From NCBI GenBank assembly GCA_043800255.1, contig JAZDNF010000008.1, positions 64,001-128,000 on the forward strand: DNA of 64,000 nucleotides, written 5' to 3'. Below are positions 7,491 to 58,538 of the stretch, piece after piece. The stretch comes from Candidatus Altiarchaeota archaeon (lineage in GTDB: Archaea; Altiarchaeota; Altiarchaeia; IMC4; SCGC-AAA252-I15). Position numbers and translations under genes: made by a program. The notes beneath the pieces were generated by a model that saw nothing but the letters and a program-made list of their open reading frames with translations, ran no database searches and was not told the origin of the DNA. Each line of letters begins with the position of its first letter. Position 1 is the stretch's first letter.

Positions 7491-7615
7491 CCCGCCTTAG
7501 CGTAGCCTGGTTTAACGCGGCCGGCTGTAGTTTGGATCAAGAGGTAGAAGCCTCTCAAAGGCCGTAAAAAATAGCAGGCACCGGCAGACCCCCGGTTCAA
7601 ATCCGGGAGGCGGGA
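7491..7615 (+). tRNA. tRNA-Tyr(GTA) with a 49-nt intron (7531-7579) at 37/38
   Basis: Acceptor CCCGCCT/AGGCGGG, anticodon stem GCCGG/CCGGC, GTA at 7527-7529, T-loop TTCAAAT. BHB central helix CTGT/GCAG. Confidence 0.93.
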
Positions 7616-7638
7616 AAATTCTTCTTTTTGATGTATTG

Positions 7639-7657
7639 GCGGGGCTTTATGCCCCGC
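7639..7657 (+). terminator. T-rich tract followed by a hairpin (GCGGGGC-TTTAT-GCCCCGC) downstream of tRNA-Tyr
   Basis: Perfect 7-bp inverted repeat after TTCTTCTTTTT. Function not established and coordinates approximate. Confidence 0.35.
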
Positions 7658-7708
7658 GATTCGTTATGAGGTTATAGTGCTAACTGCCTTATGCAAGAAA
7701 CCCTATGG

Positions 7709-7912
7709 TTATGTGAGTCCTCCGTTGTTTCCGCCTAGCAGTTCTAGGTACTTGGCGGAGCATTCCACGAGTTTCTGCCTGAGTAGGGGTGCTGACTGCC
7801 AGAAGATAATGCTAACAGTCACCAATGACGCTCCGACTGGACTTAACACGTTCACAAAATCAGAAATAAAAAAGATATAGTCGTCTGCCTGCCTCCGAAG
7901 TGGGTTTTTCAT
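7709..7912 (-). CDS. Small hypothetical protein downstream of the AbrB-like gene
   Basis: 67-aa ORF whose start overlaps the AbrB-like stop; no recognisable motif. Confidence 0.3.
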   Translation of the reverse strand: MKNPLRRQADDYIFFISDFVNVLSPVGASLVTVSIIFWQSAPLLRQKLVECSAKYLELLGGNNGGLT

Positions 7913-8073
7913 TTTCTTTTTTTCCTGGATTCTCCGATTACTGTCAACTCGAGGTTACCTCTCTCGTTGAAATCCCAATCCAGCTCATCCCCCTTCGCAA
8001 GCCCGAGCCGCTTCACCTTCTCCTGCGGAATGCTCACGAAAAATCTTTTTTGGCTTTCCTGAAGCCGCACCAT
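7909..8073 (-). CDS. AbrB/MazE/SpoVT-type DNA-binding protein
   Basis: MVRLQ...FVSIPQEKVKRLGLAKGDELDW matches the swapped-hairpin pattern; ATG at 8073. Confidence 0.75.
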   Translation of the reverse strand: MVRLQESQKRFFVSIPQEKVKRLGLAKGDELDWDFNERGNLELTVIGESRKKRK

Positions 8074-8278
8074 CGTGCTAACATTATACAAAATATAATA
8101 AAAGATTAATGTTTTCGTATATAAAAGCTTACTTTGGCTCAATCAGACAGCCAGAGCGAGAGGCCGGAGACGTCAAAGCCCAACCCAATCGCATAAAACG
8201 AGGATTTAATGCGGTTCTTGCTTCCGAAGAGCTGACTTTTTACGTTTATAATGGTTACTACCAGATAGGTAAGTTCAC

Positions 8279-9358
8279 ATGGACACAAATGCAGCGGCAC
8301 CCATCGTCTTGAAAGCAGACGCGCCGAGGAGGGCGTTCTGCGTGGCCATGCAGAAGGACAACAAGCCAGTGAGAGTCGAGGGCGAATCCTCTGCCGATTT
8401 CACAACCCTTCTAGAGGAGTCTGATGTAGCGTGGGTCAACTTTGTCGTAGACGACATTAACGCCGATGGAGAGGCTATCGCAACCTCTCTAGGATTCAGC
8501 CAGAATCTGGTTTCCACCCTCCTGACAGGGTTCAGGTCCAACTATGAGGACAGGGACGTCGAGCTGGGGATTATGATACCCGCAGTCGACACCGAGAGAC
8601 TAGAGGTCACCATACACCCTCTGGTAATACTGATCAAAAGAGGCCTTATTCTGACAATCCACGGGAAGAACATAAGCCGGCTGGTTAAGTTCTCAAGATA
8701 CGCGAACACCTTCATGAAGAAGATAAAACAGAACATCCCCTGGCAGGACAAGATGACCATACTCCTGTGGAGGATCATGGACGAGAACAATTCCAAGAAT
8801 TTCGACCACCTCAGGGAAATCGAAGAGCAGGCTGATGAGTTGGCGAAGGACATGATGAACCCGATGACGCCGAGAGACAAGCTCGGTCCGGACATCTACA
8901 GGATGAAACATGCCCTCATAATATACCTCGACTCCCTCTGGGCGACGCTTGACGTAATCCACACCCTAAGATACGGCGACGCTGAAGTCCTGTCAGACAA
9001 CAGTAAGATACTTGAGAGGATATCAGTACTCGCGTCTGACGTTACCAGCCAGATATCAATAAGCGAGCACATGTCAGAGGTGCTGGCATCTGGCCTGGAA
9101 GTCTTACAAACCATATACAACAACCAGCTGCAGATGCTGAACAACAGGCTAGCCTTACTGGCAACATGGCTGGCAATCATCGGCACGGCAGTCCTAGTGC
9201 CCAACACCCTGGCAACGATATTCGGAATCCCAACAATATCAGAACACCTAGACTGGCGCCTCACAATACTGATACTAATCGCCTCAACGCTGCTGTCAGC
9301 TTGGATAGCATACTGGGCCATAAGAGCAAAAGGATTAATACCCAAAAGCGTGGAATAG
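8279..9358 (+). CDS. CorA-family divalent cation transporter
   Basis: Long soluble helical domain plus two C-terminal TM helices (PNTLATIFG in place of the GMN motif). Confidence 0.8.
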   Translation: MDTNAAAPIVLKADAPRRAFCVAMQKDNKPVRVEGESSADFTTLLEESDVAWVNFVVDDINADGEAIATSLGFSQNLVSTLLTGFRSNYEDRDVELGIMIPAVDTERLEVTIHPLVILIKRGLILTIHGKNISRLVKFSRYANTFMKKIKQNIPWQDKMTILLWRIMDENNSKNFDHLREIEEQADELAKDMMNPMTPRDKLGPDIYRMKHALIIYLDSLWATLDVIHTLRYGDAEVLSDNSKILERISVLASDVTSQISISEHMSEVLASGLEVLQTIYNNQLQMLNNRLALLATWLAIIGTAVLVPNTLATIFGIPTISEHLDWRLTILILIASTLLSAWIAYWAIRAKGLIPKSVE

Positions 9359-9425
9359 ATCCTTTCACCAGTAACCGCCCGCCAACCCCCATTTTTATTC
9401 CCCAAAGTTTAATATTAACCTTCGC

Positions 9426-9503
9426 TGCCCCGGTAGTGTCAGCAGCCTTTTAAGAAAAGGCTGGCGAAAAGAGGATAGAACACTAAAATTGCCCCGGTAG
9501 TGT
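9426..9503 (+). repeat. 14-bp direct repeat of the tRNA-Asp 5' end enclosing a palindromic element
   Basis: TGCCCCGGTAGTGT at 9426-9439 and 9490-9503. Between them, CAGCCTTTT-AAG-AAAAGGCTG-GCGAAAAG (9443-9471). Confidence 0.85.
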
Positions 9504-9616
9504 AGCGGACTATCATGTAAGCCTGTCGCAACCCTTTTCCGCCTACGGCGCAAAAGCGTTGACGGAAAAAAGATTGCAGTCAGCTTACGACTCGGGTTCG
9601 AATCCCGACCGGGGCG
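9491..9616 (+). tRNA. tRNA-Asp(GTC) with a 53-nt intron (9529-9581) at 37/38
   Basis: Acceptor GCCCCGG/CCGGGGC, anticodon stem TAAGC/GCTTA, GTC at 9525-9527, T-loop TTCGAAT. BHB helix CTGT/GCAG. Confidence 0.93.
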
Positions 9617-9911
9617 TCCAACCCGTAGACCCAATTTAGGGGCCAACAGAGCCCTGCTCTGTATATTTTTCTAGATTCTTCTTATCATAATTGATGGAAT
9701 TACGCGAGTTAGAATATCTATTTAATTCATATGGGAAGAATGAGACCCCAACTATAGCCTATCGGCTGGGGGAGTATTTCTATGACCATCCTGAGCGTTT
9801 TAAATATCTCCAGATAGCAATCGCTGGCCAGATAATGTTTTTGTATCGGATAACCCAGAAACCCGTATATCCGATACATTAGATATAAACCTGTAAGAAC
9901 TAACTAAAGCC

Positions 9912-10325
9912 CTATCTGAACACGTAAAAAATAGCCACTACCAGCAATTCAAGTACGATTACGCTCCATCTCAAAGCTCCTTTTTTACTATACGTTTTGA
10001 GATAATACACATAAATGAGAAGTAAAAACTGCGATATCAATGGAATGAAAAATCGCTTGTACGTAAAGAGAATGTTCTGGATTATTAACTGCAATACATA
10101 ACCAGCAACAAGCATAGCAAATATATTTAAAAGGAAATATTTGAAACCCTTGTTCAGAGTTTCAAAAGTATTTTTGAACCCTTTTACCCAACCTTTTCCT
10201 CCTGAAAAAAGTAGTCCATCGAAATAAAGAACTATTCCCCCGGCCAATAGGATAGACAAATATGGGATTAATGGATCTATGATGTTGTTAGTATAGTCGA
10301 TAATTTCTACTATCATATTTACCAC
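9912..10325 (-). CDS. Hypothetical membrane protein (about 4 TM)
   Basis: Hydrophobic 137-aa ORF with AT-rich codons. Confidence 0.65.
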   Translation of the reverse strand: MVNMIVEIIDYTNNIIDPLIPYLSILLAGGIVLYFDGLLFSGGKGWVKGFKNTFETLNKGFKYFLLNIFAMLVAGYVLQLIIQNILFTYKRFFIPLISQFLLLIYVYYLKTYSKKGALRWSVIVLELLVVAIFYVFR

Positions 10326-10612
10326 TTGATAACACCATGGAATCTATACTTTTAAACATCTTTTGCCCGTATCTGGACGTACCCTCTCTAGATCTACAAG
10401 GTTCTTATTCTCCAACATTTAAAACCTCTTTTTAAGCGGGAAACACATAGATAGCCGTCAGTGGCAAAATGCTACTGGCATGTAAATAACGTTGCGGATT
10501 TGTAAGCGCTTGATCGGGGCGTCTGGCATTTTCAGCATTATGATGGCTTTTTTAGCCTGTTTTAGGCGGGTTCATTGGGCCGGCAGGGATTTGAACACTT
10601 GGTATGGTTTCA

Positions 10613-10963
10613 CTATTCTTGTTTTTCCAGTTCTTTCAGGAGTTGCTTTAGGGGTGTTTTTATCTCCGGTAGTTTTTCTTGGATTGTTTTCCATATGACA
10701 TCGTAGTCGACTCCGAAGTAGCCGTGGATGATTTTGTCCCTCGTCTTGGCCATGTCGCTCCAGGGGATGGCTTTGTTTTTCTGCCTTATGTCGGATGGGA
10801 CGTTCTTCGCCGCCTCGCCGATTATTTCGAGTTTTCTCACGACGGCGCTGGACGTCTTGTCGTCATCTTGGAACTGGGTTAGGCTCATACCGCCTGTGAA
10901 CGTTTGTATCTGAGCTATGGCTTCCAGGATGTCTTTTATCAGCAAGCTGTGTTTACGTTTCAT
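10613..10963 (-). CDS. HepT-like HEPN RNase toxin (DUF86)
   Basis: LEIIGEAAKNV, IPWSDM and RDKIIHGY (Rx4H-x-Y) motifs; overlaps the MNT stop codon. Confidence 0.9.
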   Translation of the reverse strand: MKRKHSLLIKDILEAIAQIQTFTGGMSLTQFQDDDKTSSAVVRKLEIIGEAAKNVPSDIRQKNKAIPWSDMAKTRDKIIHGYFGVDYDVIWKTIQEKLPEIKTPLKQLLKELEKQE

Positions 10964-11253
10964 ATCATCACTGCCTCGGACAGGATGTTCCTTCGAAGCT
11001 CCGGCCTAATGGCCCCCTTTCTCACCACGTCTACTTTCCTGCCCAATGACCTTCGCAGGCTACCTTCAAGTCTTACCAGTTCGAAAAGATCTGGTGTTGA
11101 TGTGAAGTCGACGAGTATGTCGATGTCGCTGCTTTTCTTCTGCTCCCCGCGCACAAACGACCCGAAGACTCCAATCTCGCGAACACCATACTCCGTATGC
11201 AACTTCGCCTTCCTCTTCTGGAGTATCCGTTTAATGTCGCTTAATTTTTTCAT
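10960..11253 (-). CDS. MntA-like minimal nucleotidyltransferase antitoxin
   Basis: GVFGSFVRGEQ...SDIDILVDF and LGRKVDVV motifs. Confidence 0.9.
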   Translation of the reverse strand: MKKLSDIKRILQKRKAKLHTEYGVREIGVFGSFVRGEQKKSSDIDILVDFTSTPDLFELVRLEGSLRRSLGRKVDVVRKGAIRPELRRNILSEAVMI

Positions 11254-11408
11254 CTCCTATACCCAAGATAATTCTCATCTGGCATCCCAGTAGGAACGCC
11301 AGAGCGCATGTTGTACAGATAAGAATGGTGTGCTTTTCCCTAAAATACTCCGATAGCCCCGCTCTAATTGGATAAATGTGGGCTGAGCCAACAAGGCCTG
11401 AATCTAGC

Positions 11409-11807: not shown

Positions 11808-11810
11808 AAT

Positions 11811-23913: not shown

Positions 23914-24965
23914 CGACCGCTGTAGTATATCATGAGGGCTGCCTCAAGCACAGGCAGCTGCCAGGACATCCTGAGACACCGGAGAGGCTGAAGTCTACGA
24001 TGGAATACTACGCGAAAAAGGGGGTGCTAGACCATGTGAGACTGCTGAAGCCTGAAAATGCCACTCTGGAGGACATACTTAGAGTCCACGACATAAAACT
24101 AGTAGAGCATATAAGGGAGCTGGCAGAAGGAGGAGGCGGGAGCATAAACTCAGACACATACGTGAGTCCTGAAACCTACGACGCCGCCCTATTGACTGCG
24201 GGAGGCGTTAAGCTCGCTGGAGAGGTTGTCATGACAGGCGAATACGATAATGCGTTTGCGCTGGTGCGCCCCCCAGGACACCATGCTTCAAGGTATGAGG
24301 CAACAGGCTTCTGCTACTTCGACAACGTTTCGGTGATGATAAAGTACCTGCAGCAGAGATACGGCCTGAAGAGGGCGCTAGTTTTCGACTGGGACGCCCA
24401 CAACCCCAACGGCACGATGGACACCTTCTACCATGACCCCACAGTGTTGAACGTCTCGATACACCAGGACCCGCACACACTGTACCCCGGGACAGGGTTC
24501 GTTGAGGACATCGGAGAGGGCAGCGGCAGAGGGTACACCATAAACCTTCCCGTGCCGGCTGGCACAGGAGACGCAGACTATATGCACCTCATAGATGAGG
24601 TCATAACGCCTGCCGCAGAAAGGTTCAGACCCGAACTGATAGTGCTTTCGGCAGGCCAGGACTCACATAGGGATGACCTGCTCTCAGGGCTGTCAGTCAC
24701 AGAGGCAGGCTATGCCGCCATGACCATGAGGTTCATGGAACTGGCTGAAGAGCACTGCAACAGGAGGCTTGTGGTCGAACTCGAGGGAGGATACAATTTG
24801 AACGCCCTCAGAGAGTCGAACTATATGATAATCTCAGCCCTTATGGGAATGAAATTCCTCCCCAATATAACCGGGAAGGTGAGGGAATCAACGAAAGAAC
24901 TGGTAAAAGAATACAATGAGGTGATGATGTCTGCCAGAATATGGGCCGACGCTCCAAGAATATGA
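23910..24965 (+). CDS. Zn-dependent histone deacetylase family protein
   Basis: HPETPERL, RPPGHHA, GFCYF, DWDAH and ELEGGY motifs. Confidence 0.92.
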   Translation: MTTAVVYHEGCLKHRQLPGHPETPERLKSTMEYYAKKGVLDHVRLLKPENATLEDILRVHDIKLVEHIRELAEGGGGSINSDTYVSPETYDAALLTAGGVKLAGEVVMTGEYDNAFALVRPPGHHASRYEATGFCYFDNVSVMIKYLQQRYGLKRALVFDWDAHNPNGTMDTFYHDPTVLNVSIHQDPHTLYPGTGFVEDIGEGSGRGYTINLPVPAGTGDADYMHLIDEVITPAAERFRPELIVLSAGQDSHRDDLLSGLSVTEAGYAAMTMRFMELAEEHCNRRLVVELEGGYNLNALRESNYMIISALMGMKFLPNITGKVRESTKELVKEYNEVMMSARIWADAPRI

Positions 24966-26043: not shown

Positions 26044-26454
26044 TCACCTATCGTGAAAGATGCAGGATAATGCGTCAGATACGATTTTCCAGTGGTCGAA
26101 AGCCAGTTCCGGGAGCTTTTCCACGTCGAACATCCTGCACTCGGCAGCGTCATCGCCTCCGGCAGGCTCACCCGACAGCCTCTCGCAGAGGAACACTATG
26201 GAAACGCTGTGGCCTCTCGGGTCTCTGCCAGGGTCAGAGTATACGCCCAATAGCTCTCGAACCTTCACCTTAATGGAAGTTTCCTCATAGACTTCTCTGA
26301 CGACGGCATCCTCGACCCGTTCACCATATTCGACGAATCCGCCAGGAAGAGCCCACATGCCCTTAAACGGCTGGTTCCCCCTCCTGATGAGGAGTATCTT
26401 ATCGTCTTCGACGACCACACCGTCAACCATCAGACTCGGCTTCCTATCGTCCAT
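26044..26454 (-). CDS. NUDIX hydrolase
   Basis: GGFVEYGERVEDAVVREVYEETS Nudix box; RDPRGH and LAFDH. Confidence 0.92.
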   Translation of the reverse strand: MDDRKPSLMVDGVVVEDDKILLIRRGNQPFKGMWALPGGFVEYGERVEDAVVREVYEETSIKVKVRELLGVYSDPGRDPRGHSVSIVFLCERLSGEPAGGDDAAECRMFDVEKLPELAFDHWKIVSDALSCIFHDR

Positions 26455-26503
26455 CCTACAGAAGTTAGAACAATTTTACTAGGTGCTGTTGAGGCGACTT
26501 CGT

Positions 26504-26702
26504 TGCGCTCAGCCCCATCGCAATACTCCTCTTTAGGGTCGTCGAGAGGGCGAAGCCCACGAAGACGGCCCCTTTTCGCCAGCCTCCCAATCGACCTTTG
26601 GTCGATGTTGGAGAGCTTGAAGCTCTCCGACTTTCGGGAAGCGAAGCTTCCCAAAATGGGCGCAAGTTGCCGAAGGCAACTTCGCGTTTGTTAAAAGGCT
26701 GA
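26504..26702 (-). other. Multi-hairpin palindromic element in the tRNA-Val trailer
   Basis: Outer stem CAGCCTTTTAA (26701-26691) / TTGGGAGGCTG (26590-26580) plus a GCGAAAAG foot. It encloses four perfect hairpins, with more hairpins beyond. Confidence 0.75.
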
Positions 26703-26703
26703 G

Positions 26704-26777
26704 TGGGCCCAGCCGGATTCGAACCGGCGATCTTCGCCTCGTAAAGGCGACGTCATAACCAGCTAGACTATGGGCCC
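26704..26777 (-). tRNA. tRNA-Val(TAC), intronless
   Basis: GGGCCCA...TCGCC-TT-TAC-GA-GGCGA...GCCGG-TTCGAAT-CCGGC-TGGGCCC-A. Confidence 0.96.
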
Positions 26778-26826: not shown

Positions 26827-27363
26827 CTAGATTGTTGTTGTGGTTGTTACTATTGTGGTCGTTGGAGGTGGCGGTGGCGGCCCTCCGATGGTTATGCCAG
26901 TGTCCAATGAGGCGCATGTGCTGTAGTCGACGTCTATGCCGACGACTGCTGCGAATTCCACAATAGCTAATACTATGAGAGCCCCGATTATCGCGTTTTT
27001 TATGTACTCTTTGCCTTCGGATCTCTTTTCCGGGTTGTCGGCGTTTACGGTGGTGATTATCACTCCCAGTATTAGCATTATCACAACAAGTGCGGGCGTG
27101 AGGAGTAGGAGTATGCAGAGTAGTCGGCCGACTGCGACAAAAGAGCGCGGCAGACAGGCTGTGCTCCCCCCCGCAAAGCATTGTTTGTTGCCTTGGATGT
27201 CGGCGAAACCGCAGACCTCTCCGGACGCGCATAGATTTGGACCGCACCTGCAGGAGTAACTGCTCGGTGAGGCGCAGTTGTCAGCGCATCTAATCTCTTG
27301 CGCCCCAGCATATCCTATCGCACTTGAGAGGATCAGGATGAGGATTAGAAAGTTTTTTGTCAT
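26827..27363 (-). CDS. Pilin-like (TrbC/VirB2-like topology) protein with a Cys-rich N-terminus
   Basis: Signal peptide, about 7 Cys, two TM helices joined by PEKRSEGKEYIKNAIIG, and a Pro/Thr tail. Confidence 0.6.
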   Translation of the reverse strand: MTKNFLILILILSSAIGYAGAQEIRCADNCASPSSYSCRCGPNLCASGEVCGFADIQGNKQCFAGGSTACLPRSFVAVGRLLCILLLLTPALVVIMLILGVIITTVNADNPEKRSEGKEYIKNAIIGALIVLAIVEFAAVVGIDVDYSTCASLDTGITIGGPPPPPPTTTIVTTTTTI

Positions 27364-30133: not shown

Positions 30134-30215
30134 GAGTTACTATAGGACGGCGGAAACTAAAAGGTGTTCAGATGCCAACAGACGGGTTTTATTGTCCAAA
30201 TCCCCAAGGTAATAC

Positions 30216-31046
30216 ATGAGCACTCCGATAAGGTTAAATAGCAATCGTGCCTTCATTGTCGGAGGGTACAGCCACGTTAATCCCGCTGAATTCTCAGACC
30301 ATATAAACTTTTTCGATTCTGTGTCGATGCTCTTGCAGTACCGTTACAGGATGAACCCATCCTACGCCCTCAGGGATAATGAGGCTAACCTTCTTAATCT
30401 TCCAACGTGGGATGAGCAGCGCCGGGCAACCTACCAGGGAGACATCAGTTACGTAACACACTCCGGGCTGATAGTGGCCGAGCTGACGCACCCTTCAACA
30501 GGGACCGGGCAGGAGCTGCAGTCTGCGGCAGACAACGGCATCCCAGTAATCGCCCTGATGAGAGGCGAAGAGGGCAAGCGCGTTGACATAACGTATGCCG
30601 TGCGAAACAACGACCATGGAGCTGAAGAAGGCTTCAAGCTTACGCGCGGCGTCGGCGGGATATCGAAGATGGCGGATGGCAATCCTGCAATAATTGCCAG
30701 ACTACCTTATGGGACCTACTCTGAGGCGCTGAGGAAACTGGACAAGGTGCTGCAGGAGAAGTTCGGCCTCGTGCCAGAATCTAAGAAATACCTTGAAGCC
30801 GCGAGCATCGAAGAAAAGTCTGGGAACGTTGAAAAGGCTTCGGAACTCAAGAGGAAGGCGCGATTGATAGACAATCTTCTGGAGTTCAAGCCAGAGGAGA
30901 ACAGACCTAAGAAATACGAAAAAGAGTTCCCGCACAATGAGCGGCTTCCGTTGGAAGACGTCGAGTGGGAGCTTAAGAAGAATCCATCTCACAAGAGGGA
31001 GCCACAGTCCGGGGAAGTGACAAAGCACGTTAGAAAGACGACATAA
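30216..31046 (+). CDS. Nucleoside 2-deoxyribosyltransferase/RCL-like protein
   Basis: YQGDISYV...IVAELTHPSTGTGQEL...GIPVIAL pattern. Confidence 0.65.
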   Translation: MSTPIRLNSNRAFIVGGYSHVNPAEFSDHINFFDSVSMLLQYRYRMNPSYALRDNEANLLNLPTWDEQRRATYQGDISYVTHSGLIVAELTHPSTGTGQELQSAADNGIPVIALMRGEEGKRVDITYAVRNNDHGAEEGFKLTRGVGGISKMADGNPAIIARLPYGTYSEALRKLDKVLQEKFGLVPESKKYLEAASIEEKSGNVEKASELKRKARLIDNLLEFKPEENRPKKYEKEFPHNERLPLEDVEWELKKNPSHKREPQSGEVTKHVRKTT

Positions 31047-31051
31047 GCATA

Positions 31052-31645
31052 ATGTTAGATTATAGCACCATCGTCAAGGGCATTGTGCTGTTATCTTGGG
31101 GTATTGTCATTCTTGTCTCAGTCGCCAACCCCCTGACGTTGATGTTCAGGAGATTCTTGCGCAGGATATTCTCAAAGTTGGGCGAAATCCCGTACCTTAT
31201 CCTGTTAGCTCTGATGTTACTGTCAACACTGCTGCTTGCCTATTCGCTGAGGGAGAGAATCCTCTCCCATCGCCTGAGTCTGCCGCCTGCAGCAGACTAT
31301 GCCGGCGTTCTCATCCTGCTGTCCGGATTTTTCCTGGATTTCTGGGCCACCTCGAGTTTAGGGTGGAAGGCAGTGCTGAATATTCCAACAGCGGTAGGCT
31401 CTGAGGGCATGAGGAGACTGACAAGAGAAGGCGCCTACGCGTTCTCGAGGAACCCCCTCTACGTCGGAGACGCCCTAATCGTGGCAGGCCTTCTGCTGCT
31501 GACAGGTTATGCGAGCCTCATTCTCCTGTTAGTAATCTACTTGGCTCATGTGCTCGTCCAAGTCAGGCTTGAGGAGCATGAGCTGACAGAGACTTTCGGA
31601 AAAGAATATTATGGGTATATGAGGACAGTGCCCAGATTCTTGTGA
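31052..31645 (+). CDS. ICMT/PEMT-family membrane methyltransferase
   Basis: GAYAFSRNPLY and EEHEL...FGKEY...VPRF motifs. Confidence 0.85.
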   Translation: MLDYSTIVKGIVLLSWGIVILVSVANPLTLMFRRFLRRIFSKLGEIPYLILLALMLLSTLLLAYSLRERILSHRLSLPPAADYAGVLILLSGFFLDFWATSSLGWKAVLNIPTAVGSEGMRRLTREGAYAFSRNPLYVGDALIVAGLLLLTGYASLILLLVIYLAHVLVQVRLEEHELTETFGKEYYGYMRTVPRFL

Positions 31646-32527: not shown

Positions 32528-32623
32528 TCTTGGGGGATGCGGCCGACCTTTGGTCGGGCGCGTGTCGAACCTTTAGGTCGCCACATAGAACAACTTTCTT
32601 TCTTACAAGAAAGAAAGGGGTCT
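32528..32623 (-). other. Hairpin cluster in the tRNA-Ile2 trailer, bounded by a degenerate 3'-end copy
   Basis: CTTTCTTTCTT-GT-AAGAAAGAAAG (near-copy of the intron hairpin) and CGACC-AAA-GGTCG (shared with the Val trailer). Ends in GCCGCATCCCCCAAGA versus the tRNA end GCCGCAGGCCCAAGA. Confidence 0.65.
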
Positions 32624-32757
32624 TGGGCCTGCGGCGATTCGAACGCCGGACCACTCGATCTCTCCAACCTTCTTTCTTTTCGCGAACGTTTTCTTTCTTC
32701 CTAAGAAAGAAAAGGTTCTATGAGTCGAGCGCTCTGACCAGTCTGAGCTACAGGCCC
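32624..32757 (-). tRNA. tRNA with CAT anticodon, probably Ile2, with a 59-nt intron (32660-32718) at 37/38
   Basis: Acceptor GGGCCTG/CAGGCCC, anticodon stem CTCGA/TCGAG, T-loop TTCGAAT. The GGGCC start fits archaeal Ile2 better than initiator or elongator Met. Confidence 0.88.
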
Positions 32758-32908
32758 GTCTTTATTCTTTTTTTATTATTGGGCCATTAAGCGACCGATT
32801 GGGAGCGCATATGGCTCAACCGAGACATCCGTCTCGGTGAGCACGAAGACGAATGTCTTCGTTGCTCCTTTGGCCAGCCTTTAAAAAGGCTGTGAGCTAC
32901 AGGCCCGT
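32744..32908 (-). repeat. 16-bp direct repeat of the tRNA 5' end enclosing a hairpin-rich insert
   Basis: ACGGGCCTGTAGCTCA at 32908-32893 and 32759-32744. The insert starts CAGCCTTTTTAAAGGCTG-GCCAAAG. Confidence 0.88.
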
Positions 32909-54250: not shown

Positions 54251-54331
54251 AATGCCAGGGTGGCAGTCAAACCTCGCCTCAAAAAAGGCTCAGACCCGCC
54301 ACCCCAGAAGAATAAAATGCCGGGGTGGCGG
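54251..54331 (+). repeat. Imperfect direct repeat of the tRNA-Ser 5' end plus an antisense copy
   Basis: AATGCCAGGGTGGC (54251-54264) versus AATGCCGGGGTGGC (54316-54329). CCGCCACCCC (54296-54305) is the exact complement of 54322-54331. Confidence 0.75.
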
Positions 54332-54460
54332 AGCACGGTTCATCGCGCAAGCCTGGAACAACCTTTTCCCGCCCCTCACGGGGCGGCAAAACGTTAACGA
54401 AAAGAATACAGCCAGCTTGTCGTCCATGCGGCGGCTTGGGTTCAAATCCCAACCCCGGCG
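54319..54460 (+). tRNA. tRNA-Ser(GGA) with a 55-nt intron (54359-54413) at 37/38
   Basis: Acceptor GCCGGGG/CCCCGGC, anticodon stem CAAGC/GCTTG, GGA at 54355-54357, long variable arm, TTCAAAT loop. Confidence 0.92.
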
Positions 54461-54605
54461 ATCTACTCAAAGTACAAATCCCCTCCTCATTTTCAGATAT
54501 TTGGTAGGTATCCCCGATTCTGCACGTTTCATAAGACCAACATAGGGGCCGGAGAAAAAGAAAATAGCACGAGAGCAAGGGAAAAATAAGGGTGTATAAT
54601 TAAAG

Positions 54606-55250
54606 TTAGGAGCTTGAATTTTGTTGAATATCTTGTTGAGACCGGATTACTTCGATTGTTCCAGTGTCTTTTAGAATAACAGTATCATCAGATAGAATTT
54701 CAATAAAAAGAGGTACATCTTGGTTCAATGTAATAATACTGTCTGCAGTTTTCCCAATAAATAATATCTTTCTTTCTGAACCTTCTGCTAATTTGCCATA
54801 GGCATATTTGTCAACATTTATCGTCCCACCAAAATTACCAGGCTCAGATGACGATCCCAAGAGAGGGTACAATTCAGAGTTAACTGGTCGAATATTTTCA
54901 ATATGTTCAGGATAATACTTAATCACAAGAGTAGTTTCTTCATATATCCTATTACCGAGTGGGTACTCAAGATCCATGCGAGTTATGAATGTAGAATTTT
55001 CAGATATTTTTTTAATGCCGGTTCTATCATTTGCCCACGAGTAGTTGGTATTAATAATATCTCGCAATTCTATGTCAGAAGTTTCAAGAATAGCAATACC
55101 TGGCCCTATTGGGTAGATAAGTTTAATTCTGAAAGATGGTGGATCTGCATTAGTTTGATATGGAACACTCCCTAAACCACCGTTATCCATGCACCCAGAT
55201 ACCATAACTAAGGTGAGAATAACTGTACTAATCTCCTTTTTCATCCTCAT
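54606..55250 (-). CDS. Hypothetical lipoprotein
   Basis: Signal peptide ending in a VSGC lipobox. Confidence 0.65.
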   Translation of the reverse strand: MRMKKEISTVILTLVMVSGCMDNGGLGSVPYQTNADPPSFRIKLIYPIGPGIAILETSDIELRDIINTNYSWANDRTGIKKISENSTFITRMDLEYPLGNRIYEETTLVIKYYPEHIENIRPVNSELYPLLGSSSEPGNFGGTINVDKYAYGKLAEGSERKILFIGKTADSIITLNQDVPLFIEILSDDTVILKDTGTIEVIRSQQDIQQNSSS

Positions 55251-55292
55251 TATGTTTACATATTTAATATACAGAGGGTATAAAAAGATTAC

Positions 55293-56771
55293 ATGCCAAC
55301 ATTCTTTGTAGATTCTAATCTTTTTTTACAGTGTAAAAAAATTCAAGAAATCCCATGGGGGGACGTATCAGATGAGGATAGTACCCTTGTCTTGATACCA
55401 CGGCCAGTTCAAATTGAGATAGATAGATTAAAACAATCTGGGAATACACGCCTAGCAAAAAGAGCAAGAGAGGCCAACTCCTTTTTCAGGGATATGATTG
55501 ACAATAACGACACATTTCAGTTCAATCAAAATTCAAAGGCTATATGCTTTAAGTTTGCTCCAAACTATAAAACTTCGGAATTGGAAAAACAAGACGATCG
55601 ATTAGATATTAGCAAAACGGATGACGAGATAATTGCAAATGCAATAATTTATAGAAAAGAAACCAGTGACCTAGATGTCTTCCTATTAACTCATGACACA
55701 AATCCAATTTTAACTGCCAAACAATGTGGATTACCGTATAAAAGAATTCCGGATTCTTGGCTACTAGCCCCCGAACTGGATAGTAGGGATAAACGGATTG
55801 CTAAACTTGAGGAAGAGATCAAGACAATTAAAAAATCTTCCCCTAATGTAAAAATCGAACACTCTATAGATAGCGAGAATAGTACTGATGGGTATATAGA
55901 AGTTAAAACTTTTAATGATCTTTCAGAAGATGAAAAATCAACTATCATTGATCAGTTAAAATCAAAATTCCCACTCAAAGATGATTTTTCATTTGAACAC
56001 ATACGAAAAGATAGAACTAGGGATTATGGGGTTATGTCATTACTATTTGGTGAAAAACAATTCGTACCTCCAGATAAAGAAGATATTGAGGATTATAAAA
56101 ATAACAGATATCCAGATTGGATTAATAAAGTAAGGTCTTGGTTAAATGAAATACCACAGTATCTTCAATATCCTTTTCACAGGCTCAGATTACGATTAAA
56201 CGTATCAAATGATGGTAATACCCCTATTGAACATTTTTTATTAGCATTCAAGAGCCATGGAGGTATTCTAATAAAACCAGGAGATAATGATTTAGAGTCT
56301 GATGAACAGCTTAAAATATCACCAATTCCGCCACCCCCTCGGCTTCCAGAGGGAAAATGGATAAGAGTAAATACATCCTTCTTATCACAGATGAAGGGTA
56401 TATCCGATCTTTCTGGAACTCTTAGAGATCAATATCTTGGTTTAATTCCTGAAAATATTGTGCCATATACAAACTCTTCATCAAGGAGAGATCGTCATGG
56501 GATATATTATAAAGGATCCAGACCAACAGATTTTGTAGATTCATTTGAATGTGAATGTGATGAATTTAGACATAAAATTGATCCAGAAACTTTTGATTTG
56601 ATTGTATCTATCCCAACTGATGAGAAAATAGTAGAGGGAGTTATATCTTGCATAATAACAGGAACTAATCTACCAGAACCAAAGAGAGAACATATCAAGT
56701 TAAATTTTAAACATGCTACAGGAGATAGTTATACCGAAGTTCAAAGATTGATAAGTGAATTAAATCCATAA
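55293..56771 (+). CDS. PIN-domain protein with coiled coil and unknown C-terminal domain
   Basis: FVDSN, EIDRLK, TDDEII and LLTHD acidic PIN residues. Confidence 0.75.
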   Translation: MPTFFVDSNLFLQCKKIQEIPWGDVSDEDSTLVLIPRPVQIEIDRLKQSGNTRLAKRAREANSFFRDMIDNNDTFQFNQNSKAICFKFAPNYKTSELEKQDDRLDISKTDDEIIANAIIYRKETSDLDVFLLTHDTNPILTAKQCGLPYKRIPDSWLLAPELDSRDKRIAKLEEEIKTIKKSSPNVKIEHSIDSENSTDGYIEVKTFNDLSEDEKSTIIDQLKSKFPLKDDFSFEHIRKDRTRDYGVMSLLFGEKQFVPPDKEDIEDYKNNRYPDWINKVRSWLNEIPQYLQYPFHRLRLRLNVSNDGNTPIEHFLLAFKSHGGILIKPGDNDLESDEQLKISPIPPPPRLPEGKWIRVNTSFLSQMKGISDLSGTLRDQYLGLIPENIVPYTNSSSRRDRHGIYYKGSRPTDFVDSFECECDEFRHKIDPETFDLIVSIPTDEKIVEGVISCIITGTNLPEPKREHIKLNFKHATGDSYTEVQRLISELNP

Positions 56772-56852
56772 AAATCGCAGTCCTCTGGTTTTGGGCCGGG
56801 CTTTGAAGACTGAAGCCACCTCTCAACCTCGGCGTAGCGTTTTTTATGCGCG

Positions 56853-57074
56853 TTAGGATAGGGATTGTCTGTTGATTTTTTTGTCGAGTAGGGAGCTCAT
56901 GGAGATTCCTTCTTTCTCAGCCTCTTCTTTCAATTTCCAGTATGTTCTGTATTGTATTGTAAAACTTCTGGTGACTTTGTCTAAAGCGAACTCTCTGTTT
57001 TTATCATATTCCTCGAACATTTTCGTGTACTTTTTGTTATCATCCAAGATCAACAAGGTTTCCTTATCCAACAT
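56853..57074 (-). CDS. Putative antitoxin with a ribbon-helix-helix-like C-terminus
   Basis: TRSFTI...LKEEAEKEGISMSSLLD; overlaps the Fic gene end. Confidence 0.55.
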   Translation of the reverse strand: MLDKETLLILDDNKKYTKMFEEYDKNREFALDKVTRSFTIQYRTYWKLKEEAEKEGISMSSLLDKKINRQSLS

Positions 57075-57435
57075 TGTTTTTTCCTCCGCTTATCGCGTAT
57101 CTCAACCTGTATTCGATTCTTTTAGCATCGTCTAACACAGTCTTTGTTACTTTCAAGAGTTGTTTCGCAAGACGTTCCTTTCTATCATCCGTAAGTTGAT
57201 AACCATGCCTAAAAAACAACACAGCCGCTATGTCAAAGGCCGTTCTCTTATCAGCGTCTGAAAAACTGCGGTCTACTAATATAGCACGCCACAACAATGC
57301 GATTTTTCTGAACACGTTTTTGTTTTTTCCCGCATCTAAAGCAAAACTTAAACTTCCCATATTCAATTGTCCCCCGCCCCCTCCTTTTTTGTTAATTTCT
57401 ATGATATCCTCTAAAGTGAGGTCTTTCTCATCCAT
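57064..57435 (-). CDS. Fic/Doc-family protein with a degenerate catalytic motif
   Basis: DIIEIN, GSLSFAL and RSFSDADKRTA (canonical HxFxDGNKRT). Confidence 0.72.
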   Translation of the reverse strand: MDEKDLTLEDIIEINKKGGGGGQLNMGSLSFALDAGKNKNVFRKIALLWRAILVDRSFSDADKRTAFDIAAVLFFRHGYQLTDDRKERLAKQLLKVTKTVLDDAKRIEYRLRYAISGGKNNVG

Positions 57436-57668
57436 TTTAGGACAGTTATCAACATTTTGGTAAATTTTAGTTTACTATATATAATATTATATAACTTGAT
57501 ATAAATACTATTAGAAATCGATAAATTGCAACATATTCATATAGTTGATTAAATAATCAAGTATTAAAATCATATATATAAATTTATACATTGAATCTTG
57601 CAAATAGATTCATTCCCGATGATTTTTTCTTAATAATCGCGTAGAACGGTATTGTTAACCTGGACACC

Positions 57669-58193
57669 TTGAAAGCGTCTGGGAGTTCTAAGGCGGGGAA
57701 ACTGGCGAAGAAGAATCTCAGGAGGGAAGACCATGAGGCGTTGGCGGTTTGGGCTGCTGACTGCGCCGAGCATGTGCTCCCCTACTTTGAGAAAGAATAC
57801 CCAGAAGATGATCGCCCTCGGAAAGCCATCAAAGCATGCCGAAGGTGGGCGCGTACCGGCGTGTTCAGGATGGCAGACGTGCGAAGAGACTCGCTCGCAG
57901 CCCACGCTGCCGCACGCGAAGCGAAAGAGGACAGCGCAGCCCGCTATGCAGCCCGCGCCGCAGGCCAAGCAGTAGCGACTGCACACGCGCCCAGGCATGC
58001 GATCGGCCCCGCATGGTATGGTATCAAAGCCGCCGAAGCTGCAGGCGTTGCAGATGAGCGTGAGTGGCAGCACTCGCACCTCCCGAAACGTCTTCATCCA
58101 ATGGTGTCCGCTGAAGCAACACGACACGGCAGAAAAAACCCGGGACGAAAAAGATACCGACATTTAAGTATTGCATCAAAGGACATGCAGTAA
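57669..58193 (+). CDS. Imm5-like putative immunity protein
   Basis: LAVWAADCAEHVLPYFE...DDRPRKAI...AHAAAR...AARAAGQAVATAH...EREWQ. TTG start is uncertain; GC-richer than its neighbours. Confidence 0.72.
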   Translation: MKASGSSKAGKLAKKNLRREDHEALAVWAADCAEHVLPYFEKEYPEDDRPRKAIKACRRWARTGVFRMADVRRDSLAAHAAAREAKEDSAARYAARAAGQAVATAHAPRHAIGPAWYGIKAAEAAGVADEREWQHSHLPKRLHPMVSAEATRHGRKNPGRKRYRHLSIASKDMQ

Positions 58194-58538
58194 ATCCGTT
58201 ATCATTGAGAGGGGATTCGAACTCCCAGCACCGCTCTGAACTCTGGCGATTAATTTGCTCTTCTCAGAAAAAAAGAAATCTGGGAGTTAGGGTTCCCGAT
58301 TGCAATAGACATTGGTTCACGGCAAAAAGTGCGCGAAAGGGCGAGAATATGGCTTAAAACGCTATATAGCGGGGCTGGAGAACGATGGCTGCGGCTCCGG
58401 TATATTTTTATATTTTTGTTTGAAATAATCATATGGAGTATCTTGTCTACCGGTCTTCGATCCTGGGGTTGGGAGGATGGCGCATATCCTGATTTTGGAT
58501 AGGGGATGTTGAAGGGAAATCGCAAAGACTTCTGAAAA

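What the first reader, a model, noticed from the sequence alone, without database searches (positions are those of the whole stretch)
7491..58250. Candidate tRNA-targeting mini-element system acting at tRNA 5' ends, anticodon loops and 3' ends
Seen: every tRNA in the window is decorated. Four have 49-59 nt introns, three have a 14-16 bp duplicate of their 5' end enclosing a hairpin insert, and all five have a degenerate 11-16 bp duplicate of their 3' end bounding a hairpin cluster or gene cassette. One stem-plus-foot motif recurs in introns, leaders and a trailer, always in tRNA sense. Known: tRNA 3' ends are standard targets of tyrosine integrases and some casposons, and REP-type hairpins are mobilised by HUH (RAYT/TnpA) nucleases. 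I do not know of one element family documented in all three positions. Inference: a non-autonomous element spreads among tRNA loci, survives where tRNA processing (RNase P, RNase Z, splicing endonuclease) removes it, and so creates new introns. No candidate enzyme is in the window.
Basis: partly seen in the sequence, partly recalled or inferred. Interest (0 to 1): 0.88.

Follow-up and report, generated by a model that had tools for sequence, protein, structure and literature searches.

The report
Mirror-repeat hairpin element decorating archaeal tRNAs
A small, oddly symmetric DNA/RNA hairpin recurs inside, before and after tRNA genes across a whole group of groundwater-type archaea, has also appeared at a few other genes, and may show how tRNA introns are born.

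Summary
The core observation is real. The window holds 5 tRNAs, 4 with 49-59 nt introns. A shared ~40-55 nt motif sits in three of those introns, in the Asp and Met leaders after exact 14-nt copies of the tRNA 5' end, and in the Val trailer. The claimed 3'-end duplicates at all five tRNAs are no better than chance.

The motif is a hairpin (4-bp lower stem, C.C mismatch, pyrimidine/purine helix) followed by a purine tail. The tail mirrors the hairpin's purine strand at 224 of 231 positions, and 0 of 5000 shuffles reach that. The lower stem pairs fully in 46 of 52 copies, against 83 of 847 cross-copy controls. This is triplex-type architecture.

The motif core occurs in 45 of 60 relatives, most often directly after tRNA 3' ends. 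Trailer copies are conserved across families. Other copies are recent: congeners differ at ahcY and at the Asp leader. Genome-wide, 8 of 32 tRNAs have their 5' end duplicated upstream, against 3 of 944 controls.

No transposase, reverse transcriptase or Cas1 was found. The best reading is a lineage-specific structured element, occasionally copied to new sites and tolerated where RNA processing removes it. Its mechanism is unknown.

The parts
7491..7615 (+). tRNA-Tyr(GUA) with a 49-nt intron (about 7531-7579). The intron does NOT carry the motif.
   Evidence: ARAGORN -i; sequence; fold z -1.1 with no motif
9426..9439 (+). Exact 14-nt copy of the tRNA-Asp 5' end (the upstream fragment), preceded by a TATA-like TTTTTATT
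9440..9489 (+). 50-nt leader insert: a minimal motif (9-bp hairpin CAGCCTTTT/AAAAGGCTG, then GCG and an A-run tail) plus an A/T-rich spacer
   Evidence: fold -11.2 kcal/mol, z -3.2
9490..9620 (+). tRNA-Asp(GUC). The intron (about 9530-9582, 53 nt) starts with the motif. By inspection, its conserved 3' end (..TTGCAGTCA) forms the central BHB helix with the anticodon region.
26568..26702 (-). tRNA-Val trailer: the motif's outer stem (AGCCTTTT ... GGGAGGCT, then GGCGAAAAG) encloses four nested small hairpins. Two segments are absent from contigs of related populations.
   Evidence: fold -68 kcal/mol, z -5.8; joints skipping 26605-26655 and 26442-26572
26703..26777 (-). tRNA-Val(UAC), no intron
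32592..32623 (-). tRNA-Met trailer: a pyrimidine/purine hairpin (CCCCTTTCTTTCTT-GTA-AGAAAGAAAG) right after the 3' end, with no clear mirrored tail
   Evidence: sequence
32624..32757 (-). tRNA-Met(CAU). The intron is about 32660-32718, with the full motif at 32668-32717: lower stem GAAC/GTTC, C.C mismatch, 11-bp Y/R helix, and a tail that mirrors R at 13 of 13 positions.
   Evidence: fold -14.2 kcal/mol, z -2.1
32758..32892 (-). 135-nt Met leader insert: a degenerate motif (about 32867-32892), a nested two-hairpin module (32816-32866, absent from one related contig), then an A/T-rich promoter-like stretch homologous to the one upstream of a paralogous tRNA at G000 C11:41966
32893..32908 (-). 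Exact copy of the first 14 nt of tRNA-Met, plus 2 shared upstream bases (the upstream fragment)
54251..54264 (+). Degenerate (13 of 14) copy of the tRNA-Ser 5' end. The insert that follows has no recognisable motif.
   Evidence: sequence; only a 10-nt reverse-complement match
54318..54461 (+). tRNA-Ser(GGA). The intron (54360-54414, 55 nt) starts with the motif, here with a G+C-rich upper hairpin nested in a TTTT/AAAA helix.
   Evidence: fold -18.4 kcal/mol, z -3.7
54470..58250 (.). Low-G+C stretch (0.38-0.39, against about 0.52) next to the tRNA-Ser 3' end. No significant 3'-end duplicate bounds it, and membership in the element system is not shown.

Best explanation
WHAT IT IS. A lineage-specific family of small (about 40-55 nt) structured non-coding elements. 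Each has a 4-bp lower stem, a conserved C.C mismatch and a polypyrimidine/polypurine helix. A short turn follows, then a purine tail that is the mirror image of the helix's purine strand. That is the layout of an intramolecular triple helix.

HOW IT BEHAVES. Its main and oldest home is the position directly after tRNA 3' ends. Over evolutionary time, copies have also appeared in three other settings: tRNA anticodon loops, where they are introns; tRNA 5' regions, where an 11-23 nt copy of the gene's start is left upstream; and a few other genes (a C/D-box-like sRNA and ahcY). Copies persist where they do no harm, either because RNase P, RNase Z or the splicing endonuclease cuts them out of the transcript, or because a duplicated gene start keeps one copy intact. 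Smaller hairpins then insert into or drop out of these elements quickly.

SHOWN: the anatomy and its covariation, the enrichment at tRNAs and the orientation bias, the target duplications, spread across 29 of 31 genera, conservation of trailer copies, and filled versus empty alleles between congeners.

INFERRED: that new copies arise by DNA-level copying without a dedicated transposase. My best guess is template switching or break repair at a structure-prone sequence in heavily transcribed genes. Also inferred: that RNA processing is what makes the copies tolerable, and that the triplex actually forms.
For: ANATOMY. R' mirrors its own R at 224 of 231 positions. Best-shift direct repeat scores 187 and Watson-Crick pairing to Y scores 177. 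Own-copy mirror identity is 0.97 against 0.74 for other copies, 0 of 5000 shuffles reach the observed value, and 21 of 21 parsed copies are distinct. The pattern's two free gaps are mirror-identical in 19 of 19 G000 matches and 30 of 34 matches in relatives. The lower stem is fully paired in 46 of 52 unique copies, against 83 of 847 cross-copy controls, with 13 linker types. The hairpin is recovered by folding.

ASSOCIATION. 28 of 35 nhmmer hits are at tRNAs (14 in introns, 9 in trailers, 5 in leaders) and 25 of those 28 are in tRNA sense. In 32 loci from relatives holding 36 motif copies, the contexts were: 11 trailer in sense, 6 leader, 4 intron, 1 trailer in antisense, 3 further than 150 nt from a tRNA, and 11 with no ARAGORN tRNA.

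DUPLICATIONS. The 5' end is repeated upstream (13 nt or more, exact) at 8 of 32 tRNAs, against 3 of 944 controls. The 3' end is repeated downstream at 4 of 32, against 7 of 944. The inserts between duplicates are 50-166 nt. The same fragment-motif-spacer-gene layout occurs in other genera (L076, L079, L080), at a C/D-box-like sRNA and at ahcY.

TURNOVER. ahcY is filled in G000, G001, G038 and G036 but empty in the congeners G011 and G033 and in the other roughly 19 of the 25 anchored loci, one of them (G026) ambiguous. The Asp leader motif is in G033 but not in G038. The Asp intron is present in 10 of 15 genomes. Contigs of related populations skip nested hairpin modules.

PROCESSING MACHINERY is present: RNase P RNA and EndA.

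NO KNOWN MOBILISING ENZYME: searches found nothing, and there are 0 hits on viral contigs.
Against: All 21 parsed copies differ, and mean similarity within genomes equals that between genomes (0.379 against 0.372), so there is no sign of a recent burst. Trailer copies are conserved across families (normalised alignment scores 0.87-0.91 for Leu and 0.82 for Phe) while the sequence next to them differs. That fits selection for a host function as well as it fits a mobile element.

No donor-recipient pair, no enzyme and no consistent junction microhomology was found. Intron and trailer copies carry no target duplication, so one insertion mechanism may not cover all three positions. Gain and loss cannot be told apart without a species tree. 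The contig joints are single, low-depth contigs laid at 85% likeness. A strict BHB was not recovered by MFE folding at ARAGORN's boundaries. There is no RNA data.
Confidence: 0.5

Rival explanations
1. A host functional module rather than a selfish element. On this view the motif is a conserved signal at the 3' end of stable-RNA genes. It could be an oligo-T terminator reinforced by a hairpin or triplex roadblock, T-rich on both strands and so bidirectional. Or it could be a docking or stability structure for pre-tRNA processing. Leader, intron and ahcY copies would then be by-products of recombination or repair at a structure-prone, break-prone sequence.
For: Trailer copies start right after the discriminator base, with ACC and a T-run, in G000 and in several other families. 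Trailer is the commonest context in relatives. Trailer copies are conserved across families (normalised alignment scores 0.82-0.91) although the sequence after them diverges. The motif also follows a C/D-box-like sRNA. Three-strand covariation shows long-term selection on structure. No transposase was found. That archaeal RNA polymerase terminates at oligo-T, and that H-DNA-type mirror repeats block polymerases and provoke breaks, are recalled knowledge, not results of any call.
Against: By my reading, only about 9-10 of 32 G000 tRNAs have the motif or a variant in the trailer, so it is not a general terminator. 14 of 35 hits lie inside introns, where a terminator would be harmful. The recurrent, recent and independent appearance upstream of one protein gene in four lineages is hard to ascribe to function. 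No termination or processing data exist.
Confidence: 0.3
2. Scars of integrase-mediated integration. Plasmids or viruses that integrate into tRNA genes bring their own copy of the tRNA's end and leave the displaced host fragment behind, as proposed for Caldiarchaeum tRNA-Thr. What remains today is the element's terminal motif after the rest was deleted.
For: The layout [promoter][5' fragment ending in the D-arm][insert][intact tRNA] and its mirror image at 3' ends is the layout reported by Sugahara et al. 2012 (PMC3293823; abstract and first part of Results read). The 22 duplicated codons of ahcY differ at 9 codons, 6 of them synonymous, as if one copy came from another lineage. For tRNA-Met, the ancestral-type promoter sits next to the intact gene, whereas for its paralogue it sits next to the fragment. 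One tyrosine recombinase is encoded.
Against: All 13 inserts examined are 50-166 nt long and non-coding. No insert contains a recombinase or any gene. The single integrase-family gene is far from any tRNA. There are 0 hits to the motif on viral contigs. Trailer and intron copies have no flanking duplicate. Precise loss of every element body down to the same motif boundary at many loci is improbable.
Confidence: 0.1
3. Low-complexity coincidence: A/T-rich purine and pyrimidine runs near tRNA genes that merely look alike.
For: The tracts are low in complexity. For period-4 purine repeats, mirror and direct repeats are hard to tell apart; best-shift direct identity is still 187 of 231.
Against: 0 of 5000 composition-preserving shuffles reach the mirror score. 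The backwards-read control pattern gives 0 hits against 20 in G000, and 0-3 per strand in relatives against up to 15 (up to 20 per genome). The G+C-containing lower stem co-varies.
Confidence: 0.02

Closest known systems
tRNA intron 'transposition' in Thermoproteales (Fujishima et al. 2010). I did not read the paper itself; I know it only through passages of PMC4090602 and section 2.5 of bioRxiv 10.64898/2026.10.13.758758.
   Same: Within one genome, closely related intron sequences sit in tRNAs of different isotypes. The spread is presumed to be at DNA level, its mechanism is unknown, and the BHB is thought to decide where introns can stay.
   Different: Here the shared unit is a defined structural motif that also occurs outside introns: in leaders, trailers, an sRNA gene and a protein gene. 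Non-intron copies carry target duplications, and the motif has a mirror-repeat (triplex-type) design. In the parts of those two texts that I read, neither feature is mentioned. The introns here are long (23-113 nt). ARAGORN, which only looks near the anticodon loop, places them all at or near the canonical site.
tRNA gene disruption by a mobile element in Caldiarchaeum subterraneum (Sugahara et al. 2012, PMC3293823; abstract and first part of Results read)
   Same: A 5' tRNA fragment ending in the D-arm or anticodon-stem region lies upstream of an insert, followed by an intact tRNA. There is population-level heterogeneity at the locus, and the authors link this to intron gain.
   Different: Their insert is 1,868 bp and encodes a putative recombinase. 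Here the inserts are 50-166 nt, non-coding and built around the motif. The phenomenon affects 8 of 32 tRNAs in one genome and recurs in other genera.
REP/RAYT elements and MITEs (bacterial and archaeal small non-autonomous repeats; recalled knowledge)
   Same: Short structured intergenic repeats present in many copies, with nested insertions and presence/absence polymorphism.
   Different: There are no terminal inverted repeats, no short fixed-length target duplication and no cognate HUH or DDE transposase in the genome. The copies are all different rather than near-identical, and targeting is tied to tRNA genes.
H-DNA / intramolecular triplex-forming mirror repeats, and the triple helix next to the tRNA-like mascRNA at the MALAT1 3' end (recalled knowledge)
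   Same: Homopurine-homopyrimidine tracts with mirror symmetry. In MALAT1, a triple helix sits directly beside a tRNA-shaped RNase P substrate.
   Different: MALAT1 uses two U-rich strands and one A-rich strand. Here the sense strand has one pyrimidine strand and two purine strands; the antisense strand would have the MALAT1-like composition. No triplex has been demonstrated here.
Integrative elements and genomic islands at tRNA genes (SSV-type viruses and others; passages of PMC4090602)
   Same: tRNA ends are duplicated as direct repeats flanking inserted DNA.
   Different: No integrase or cargo lies between the repeats, and the inserts are two orders of magnitude smaller.

Membership tests
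Archaeal BHB-type tRNA intron | Interrupts a tRNA gene, so that removing it restores a full tRNA | tested here: met
   ARAGORN -i finds 4 intron-bearing tRNAs in the window. Rfam tRNA matches Met and Ser over model positions 1-71 across the insertion.
Archaeal BHB-type tRNA intron | Bulge-helix-bulge (3-4-3) motif at the exon-intron junctions | tested here: inconclusive
   A strict 3-4-3 search on MFE folds of 8 pre-tRNA segments found none (0 of 8). By hand, Asp fits the canonical layout if the boundaries shift by 1 nt, and Met fits a relaxed form with one A.G pair.
Archaeal BHB-type tRNA intron | Splicing endonuclease encoded in the genome | tested here: met
   One tRNA_int_endo hit at 109.7 bits, in a 179-aa open frame, at G000 C8:119565-119825
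Archaeal BHB-type tRNA intron | Spliced product or excised intron seen in RNA | not testable with these tools
   No RNA run is listed for this stretch
Transposed tRNA intron families (Thermoproteales type) | Similar introns in tRNAs of different isotypes within one genome | tested here: met
   Family-A motif in the introns of Leu(UAG), Leu(UAA), Cys, Ser(GCU), Gly(UCC), Gly(GCC), Met, Thr(UGU) and Ala(GGC), plus Asp and Ser(GGA) in the window. Family B is in 6 introns and family C in 3.
Transposed tRNA intron families (Thermoproteales type) | [quoted passage not shown] | tested here: inconclusive
   ARAGORN only searches near the anticodon loop, and it found just 33 tRNA candidates, so tRNAs with other intron positions may be missed.
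MITE / REP-type non-autonomous transposable element | Cognate transposase (HUH Y1/RAYT, TnpB or similar) in the genome | tested here: not met
   0 hits for PF01797 and PF07282 in the 93%-complete genome. DDE families were not searched.
MITE / REP-type non-autonomous transposable element | Short target-site duplication of fixed length, and near-identical copies | tested here: not met
   Duplications are 11-23 nt at tRNAs and 24 and about 66 nt at ahcY. There are none at intron or trailer copies. 21 of 21 parsed copies are distinct.
Integrase-mediated integrative element at a tRNA | Direct repeats of part of the tRNA flank the insert | tested here: met
   5' repeats at 8 of 32 tRNAs and 3' repeats at 4 of 32 (13 nt or more)
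Integrase-mediated integrative element at a tRNA | Integrase or other genes inside the insert | tested here: not met
   The inserts are 50-166 nt and non-coding. The only Phage_integrase hit is at C7:191315-191800.
Intramolecular triplex-forming (H-DNA-type) mirror repeat | Homopurine/homopyrimidine tracts with mirror symmetry, plus a complementary strand | tested here: met
   224 of 231 mirrored positions, 0 of 5000 shuffles reach this; gap symmetry in 19 of 19 and 30 of 34 matches
Intramolecular triplex-forming (H-DNA-type) mirror repeat | Physical formation of a triple helix | not testable with these tools
   ViennaRNA cannot model base triples, and the tail is left unpaired in the folds
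Archaeal oligo-T terminator | A T-run directly downstream of the gene on the sense strand | tested here: met
   Trailer copies begin ACC followed by TTTT(T)C right after the discriminator base. The rule that oligo-T terminates archaeal transcription is recalled.
Archaeal oligo-T terminator | Transcripts end there | not testable with these tools
   No RNA data

The most novel reading that the evidence does not exclude
A new kind of mobile element that needs no transposase. On this reading, a triplex-forming hairpin is copied by host replication or repair (or by an RNA-primed route in which the purine tail acts as a primer) into heavily transcribed genes. It survives only where RNase P, RNase Z or the splicing endonuclease can excise it. 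It would then be the direct source of new tRNA introns in this archaeal phylum. That would give the first concrete donor sequence and insertion footprint for archaeal tRNA intron gain.
Probability: 0.2. Interest if true: 0.92.

Novelty: new variant of a known kind. Interest (0 to 1): 0.74.

Why it matters
How archaeal tRNA introns arise is an open question. According to the passages I read in PMC4090602, the mechanism of the proposed Thermoproteales intron transposition is still unknown. The abstract of the 2026 Asgard preprint says that how introns arrive 'remains open', and its section 2.5 reports that none of the routes tested gives a general explanation.

This lineage offers three things those studies lacked:
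- a recognisable sequence unit shared by introns and by non-intron sites;
- insertion footprints, namely duplicated gene starts;
- filled and empty alleles between species of one genus.

Together these make the question testable, both by phylogenetic reconstruction and at the bench.

Separately, the three-strand mirror covariation is rare natural evidence for selection on a triple-helix-type fold placed next to tRNA genes. It deserves biophysical study whichever way the biology turns out.

Tried and rejected
REJECTED READINGS
- C/D-box guide RNAs inside the motif introns: no C or D boxes occur in family A (box consensus recalled).
- K-turn reading of the ..GGCGAAAAG.. tail: there are no tandem G.A positions on the opposite strand (by eye; rule recalled).
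- The 8-nt 'linker' as a mini-hairpin: replaced by the lower-stem model once covariation with the 5' flank was seen.
- R' as a direct repeat of R, or as a Watson-Crick partner of Y: both score lower than the mirror relation.
- Simple tandem duplication of [motif-spacer-fragment]: rejected because the sequence upstream of the fragment differs from the spacer at Asp (window) and at L080.
- GGGTTGATAAG as the element's other end: it is mostly a tRNA leader or promoter-like module in G023 and G026, and in G001 it resembles the native ahcY upstream region of G011. Left open.

STEPS THAT LED NOWHERE
- A covariance model was not built, because MAFFT could not register the variable-length arm. An IUPAC pattern was used instead.
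- CorA-based related loci were taxonomically scattered, showed no synteny and were not used further. That call spent the genome-contig scan.
- Taxon name: not obtained. The Atlas gives only a lead, with the nearest LeuRS cluster mostly Nitrososphaerota.
- The class and phylum scopes returned the same 61 genomes (42 at 80% completeness or more), so occurrence outside this phylum was not tested.
- Viral contigs: 0 matches to one long variant of the motif. Other variants were not scanned.
- No RNA holder is listed for the stretch, and only three DNA runs of one groundwater study hold small shares of it.
- PADLOC found nothing for 4 ORFs at or beside the low-G+C island, and Pfam found only PIN_4.
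- Strict BHB search on MFE folds: 0 of 8.
- Supplementary files of papers were not consulted. Supplements of the Asgard preprint and of Sugahara 2012 may bear on intron families and insertion sequences.
- Fujishima 2010 itself was not read.

Full report
WHAT IS THERE

The window is G000:C11:64001-128000 of a 1.75-Mb assembly in 17 contigs, about 50% G+C and 93% complete. Default ARAGORN and Rfam see only tRNA-Val. With introns allowed, ARAGORN finds five tRNAs:
- Tyr, 49-nt intron
- Asp, 53-nt intron
- Val, no intron
- Met, 59-nt intron
- Ser(GGA), 55-nt intron

Rfam at E<=1 recovers Met and Ser across the whole tRNA model. Genome-wide, ARAGORN makes 33 calls and 27 have introns of 23-165 nt; the 165-nt call at C11:47317 looks false. 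RNase P RNA and one splicing endonuclease (a 179-aa frame) are encoded. The organism is an archaeon. I could not name it. Its phylum is represented by the same 61 species-level genomes at class and phylum scope. The only sequencing runs that hold part of the stretch are groundwater metagenomes from one study.

THE MOTIF

The introns fall into a few sequence families. Aligning 24 copies and parsing 21 of them gives this anatomy:
- four variable bases;
- a C;
- a pyrimidine run Y;
- a 3-4 nt loop;
- a purine run R, complementary to Y;
- an 8-nt segment C-NNNN-(A/G)(C/T)G;
- a second purine run R'.

Two covariation results define the fold.

First, R' is the mirror image of its own R at 224 of 231 anchored positions. 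The best-shift direct-repeat score is 187 and the best-shift Watson-Crick score against Y is 177. Own-copy mirror identity is 0.97, against 0.74 for other copies' R. None of 5000 composition-preserving shuffles reaches the observed value. All 21 triples are different. In the search pattern the two variable gaps were free to differ, yet they are mirror-identical in 19 of 19 G000 matches and 30 of 34 matches in relatives.

Second, the four bases before the C pair with bases 2-5 of the 8-nt segment in 46 of 52 unique copies from four genomes. The cross-copy control gives 83 of 847. There are 13 linker types, including GAAC/GTTC, CAAC/GTTG, AAAC/GTTT, CAGC/GCTG and GCAC/GTGC.

So the element is a hairpin with a conserved C.C mismatch, followed by a purine tail that runs antiparallel to the hairpin's purine strand and matches it base for base. 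From recalled knowledge, that is the design of an intramolecular purine-motif triplex. The complementary strand has the design of a pyrimidine-motif triplex. Folding recovers the hairpin and leaves the tail unpaired, as the software must. Longer intron versions add a stem that encloses the tail as a loop. Family B introns follow a related three-strand logic (by eye). No Rfam family matches these sites.

WHERE IT SITS

In G000, 28 of 35 nhmmer hits (E<=0.1) lie inside or within 130 nt of a tRNA gene. Of these, 14 are in introns, 9 in trailers and 5 in leaders, and 25 of the 28 are in tRNA sense. The seven others comprise:
- three at a C/D-box-like sRNA gene on C13 (boxes recognised by eye; consensus recalled);
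- one at the 5' end of ahcY on C16;
- three further sites: C5:7727, C13:42861 and C7:276354.

Trailer copies begin immediately after the discriminator base. Leader copies are preceded by a copy of the tRNA's first 11-23 nt, ending in the D-arm.

In the window:
- the Asp, Met and Ser introns carry the motif;
- the Asp and Met leaders carry shortened versions after exact 14-nt 5' fragments;
- the Val trailer is a motif whose loop holds four nested hairpins;
- the Tyr intron is unrelated.

THE DUPLICATIONS

Across 32 tRNAs, the 5' end is repeated upstream in the same orientation (13 nt or more, exact) at 8 of them. The control, searching each tRNA's end in other tRNAs' flanks, gives 3 of 944. All 9 repeats of 11 nt or more begin at the tRNA's base 1 or 2. 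The 3' end is repeated downstream at 4 of 32, against 7 of 944.

The 13 inserts between duplicates are 50-166 nt long. Seven of the nine 5' inserts contain the motif or a degenerate form, often with small nested hairpins; the Ala(GGC) and Ser(GCU) inserts do not. At tRNA-Arg(UCU) the same layout occurs at the 3' end with the motif inverted, so that it points towards the tRNA.

There is no exact repeat of 9 nt or more within 400 nt. The best matches within 5 kb are equalled or beaten by 31 to 198 of 200 shuffled queries.

BEYOND THIS GENOME

The core pattern occurs 20 times in G000, against 0 for the backwards-read control. It occurs in 45 of 60 relatives, with up to 20 copies per genome against 0-3 control hits per strand. 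It is common in the window's family and order and sparse in the two families of other orders.

In 32 fetched loci from relatives, holding 36 copies, the contexts were:
- 11 trailer, in sense
- 6 leader
- 4 intron
- 1 trailer, antisense
- 3 further than 150 nt from a tRNA
- 11 with no ARAGORN tRNA; by eye, at least L071 among these is also a trailer, as are L072 (counted among the 3 'far') and L088 (counted as a leader copy, between two tRNAs)

The fragment-motif-spacer-tRNA layout recurs in other genera: L076 (tRNA-Thr, two tandem units with different motif variants), L079 (tRNA-Val) and L080 (tRNA-Met, two tandem units).

OLD AND NEW COPIES

Trailer copies of tRNA-Leu have normalised alignment scores of 0.87-0.91 between G000, G001 and G026, which belong to two families. 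The Phe trailer scores 0.82 between G000 and G001. Mean similarity within genomes equals that between genomes, 0.379 against 0.372.

tRNA-Gly(UCC) carries the motif in its intron in two families, with a compensatory change in the lower stem.

tRNA-Asp has an intron at the same site, with a minimal motif and a conserved 3' end, in 10 of 15 genomes. It has none in 5: G012, G024, G027, G028 and G039. BLAST adjacency suggests two more intron-less cases, G023 and G031.

Recent changes between species of one genus are clear in three places:
- The motif with a duplicated gene start lies upstream of ahcY in G001 but not in its congener G011.
- The motif lies upstream of ahcY in G038 but not in its congener G033.
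- A motif lies in the tRNA-Asp leader of G033 but not of G038, although the upstream gene end is homologous.

Of the 25 ahcY loci I could anchor, G000 and G038 carry the motif and G036 a degenerate form. G001 could not be anchored but is filled (L090). G026 is ambiguous and the other 21 are empty.

In G001 the fragment and its upstream sequence match G011's native promoter region. The upstream fragment is therefore the original gene start, and the motif plus a second copy of the start is the addition.

In G000 the duplicated 22 codons of ahcY differ at 9 codons, 6 of them synonymous. The upstream copy ends at a stop codon in the motif loop.

Contigs of related groundwater populations skip exactly a nested two-hairpin module in the Met leader (32816-32866) and parts of the Val trailer cluster (26605-26655 and 26442-26572). 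Each skip rests on one low-depth contig.

ENZYMES

The genome has no hit to Y1/RAYT-type HUH transposases, TnpB, RVT_1 reverse transcriptases or Cas1. It has one tyrosine recombinase, at C7:191 kb. One long variant of the motif has no match in the viral contig collection.

INTERPRETATION

The facts fit best with a structured element that has lived at tRNA 3' ends for a long time. It is occasionally copied into new places in heavily used genes and is kept where it is harmless. In an anticodon loop it can be spliced out. By hand, the Asp intron forms a canonical bulge-helix-bulge, although an automatic strict search found none in 8 folds. In a leader or trailer, RNase P or RNase Z would remove it. 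In ahcY, a duplicated start keeps an intact reading frame.

The mechanism of copying is not shown. Variable duplication lengths, locus-specific spacers and the absence of a transposase make a classical transposon unlikely. I favour host replication or repair errors at a structure-prone sequence, but this is inference.

The main rival is that the motif is a host signal at the ends of stable-RNA genes, such as a terminator or a processing platform, and that the other copies are collateral. Conservation of trailer copies supports that rival. The copies inside introns argue against it, as does the fact that, by my reading, only about a third of G000 tRNAs have a trailer copy. An integrase-scar model like that of Sugahara et al. 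2012 explains the duplications but not the tiny gene-free inserts.

COMPARISON AND NOVELTY

The nearest precedents are the Thermoproteales intron families (Fujishima 2010, known to me only through) and the Caldiarchaeum tRNA-Thr locus (PMC3293823).

Full-text searches found nothing describing this motif:
- tRNA + archaea + mirror repeat + triplex: 1 irrelevant paper
- tRNA intron + polypurine + archaea: 1 irrelevant paper
- a broader search on tRNA genes, archaea, intron, leader, trailer and repetitive element: nothing relevant among the 12 of 135 papers listed

These searches cover only the held library.

I file the finding as a new variant of a known kind: tRNA-associated intron and repeat families. 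Its boldest surviving reading, a structure-driven element without a transposase that seeds tRNA introns, would be categorically new.

Noticed in passing
G000 contigs: family B at C2:12565, C5:9242, C5:18255, C7:37011, C11:41966, C11:63260; family C at C4:4471, C8:129048, C12:11512: Two further intron sequence families. Family B (GAGCCCCTTTCTTTT..AAAAGAAAGGTGCTTCACCCCCAAAGAAAA..) is in 6 tRNAs and has a related three-strand layout. Some members end in C-box-like GATGA/TGATGA stretches. Family C (two G+C-rich hairpins) is in 3 tRNAs.
   Followed up: partly
window 54470-58250: Low-G+C island (0.38-0.39) directly after tRNA-Ser. It holds a 492-aa PIN_4 protein and ORFs with no family. No integrase and no defence-model hit was found. 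An 11-mer resembling another tRNA-Ser 3' end lies at about 56824, but it is not significant.
   Followed up: partly
G000 C13:11530-11870: A C/D-box-like sRNA gene (terminal stem, C, D', C' and D boxes, by eye). Its first 26 nt are duplicated upstream before a motif copy. Its 3' end plus motif is tandemly duplicated downstream.
   Followed up: partly
L075, L076 (G023), L083 (G026); G000 C16:33041: A conserved module GGGTTGATAAGGG..hairpin..CCCTTAT lies immediately upstream of tRNA 5' ends in other genera. In G000 the same module precedes only a 16-nt 3' fragment of tRNA-Leu(UAG), which looks like the remains of a displaced gene copy.
   Followed up: partly
L062, L064, L066, L068, L073, L077, L081, L083; G000 C8:132.9-133.1 kb (tRNA-Arg(GCG) leader insert): In several genera the motif is followed by a second conserved hairpin of the form GGAATT-nnn-TTCG-nnn-AATTC, forming a composite unit.
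   Followed up: no
G000 Gly(GCC) and Thr(GGU) introns; Arg(GCG), Phe and Met (window 32816-32866) leaders: A roughly 52-nt two-hairpin module (CAACGAAGAC..GTCTTCG, then CAACGAGAC..GTCTCGTT) is inserted just after the CG of the motif's linker at five loci. It is absent from one related-population contig at the Met leader.
   Followed up: partly
G000 C5:9242-9427; C11:47317-47570; C8:129048; C12:11512; C11:41966: ARAGORN's anticodon assignments look unreliable for long-intron tRNAs: one 'tRNA-Stop(tta)', one probably false call with a 165-nt intron, and anticodon positions of 88 and 96. Only 33 candidates were found, so tRNAs with non-canonical introns are probably missed.
   Followed up: no
window 24836-24940 (+): A weak match to the fluoride riboswitch model, below threshold (21.8 bits against a gathering score of 34, E 0.12).
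   Followed up: no
window 30193-31052: One contig from a related groundwater population replaces 858 nt (the ORF at 30216-31046) with 310 other letters, which is gene-content variation between populations.
   Followed up: no
window 26827-27363 (-): An ORF next to tRNA-Val has a T4SS_pilin-like domain (E 5e-07) and a Pro/Thr-rich C-terminus.
   Followed up: no
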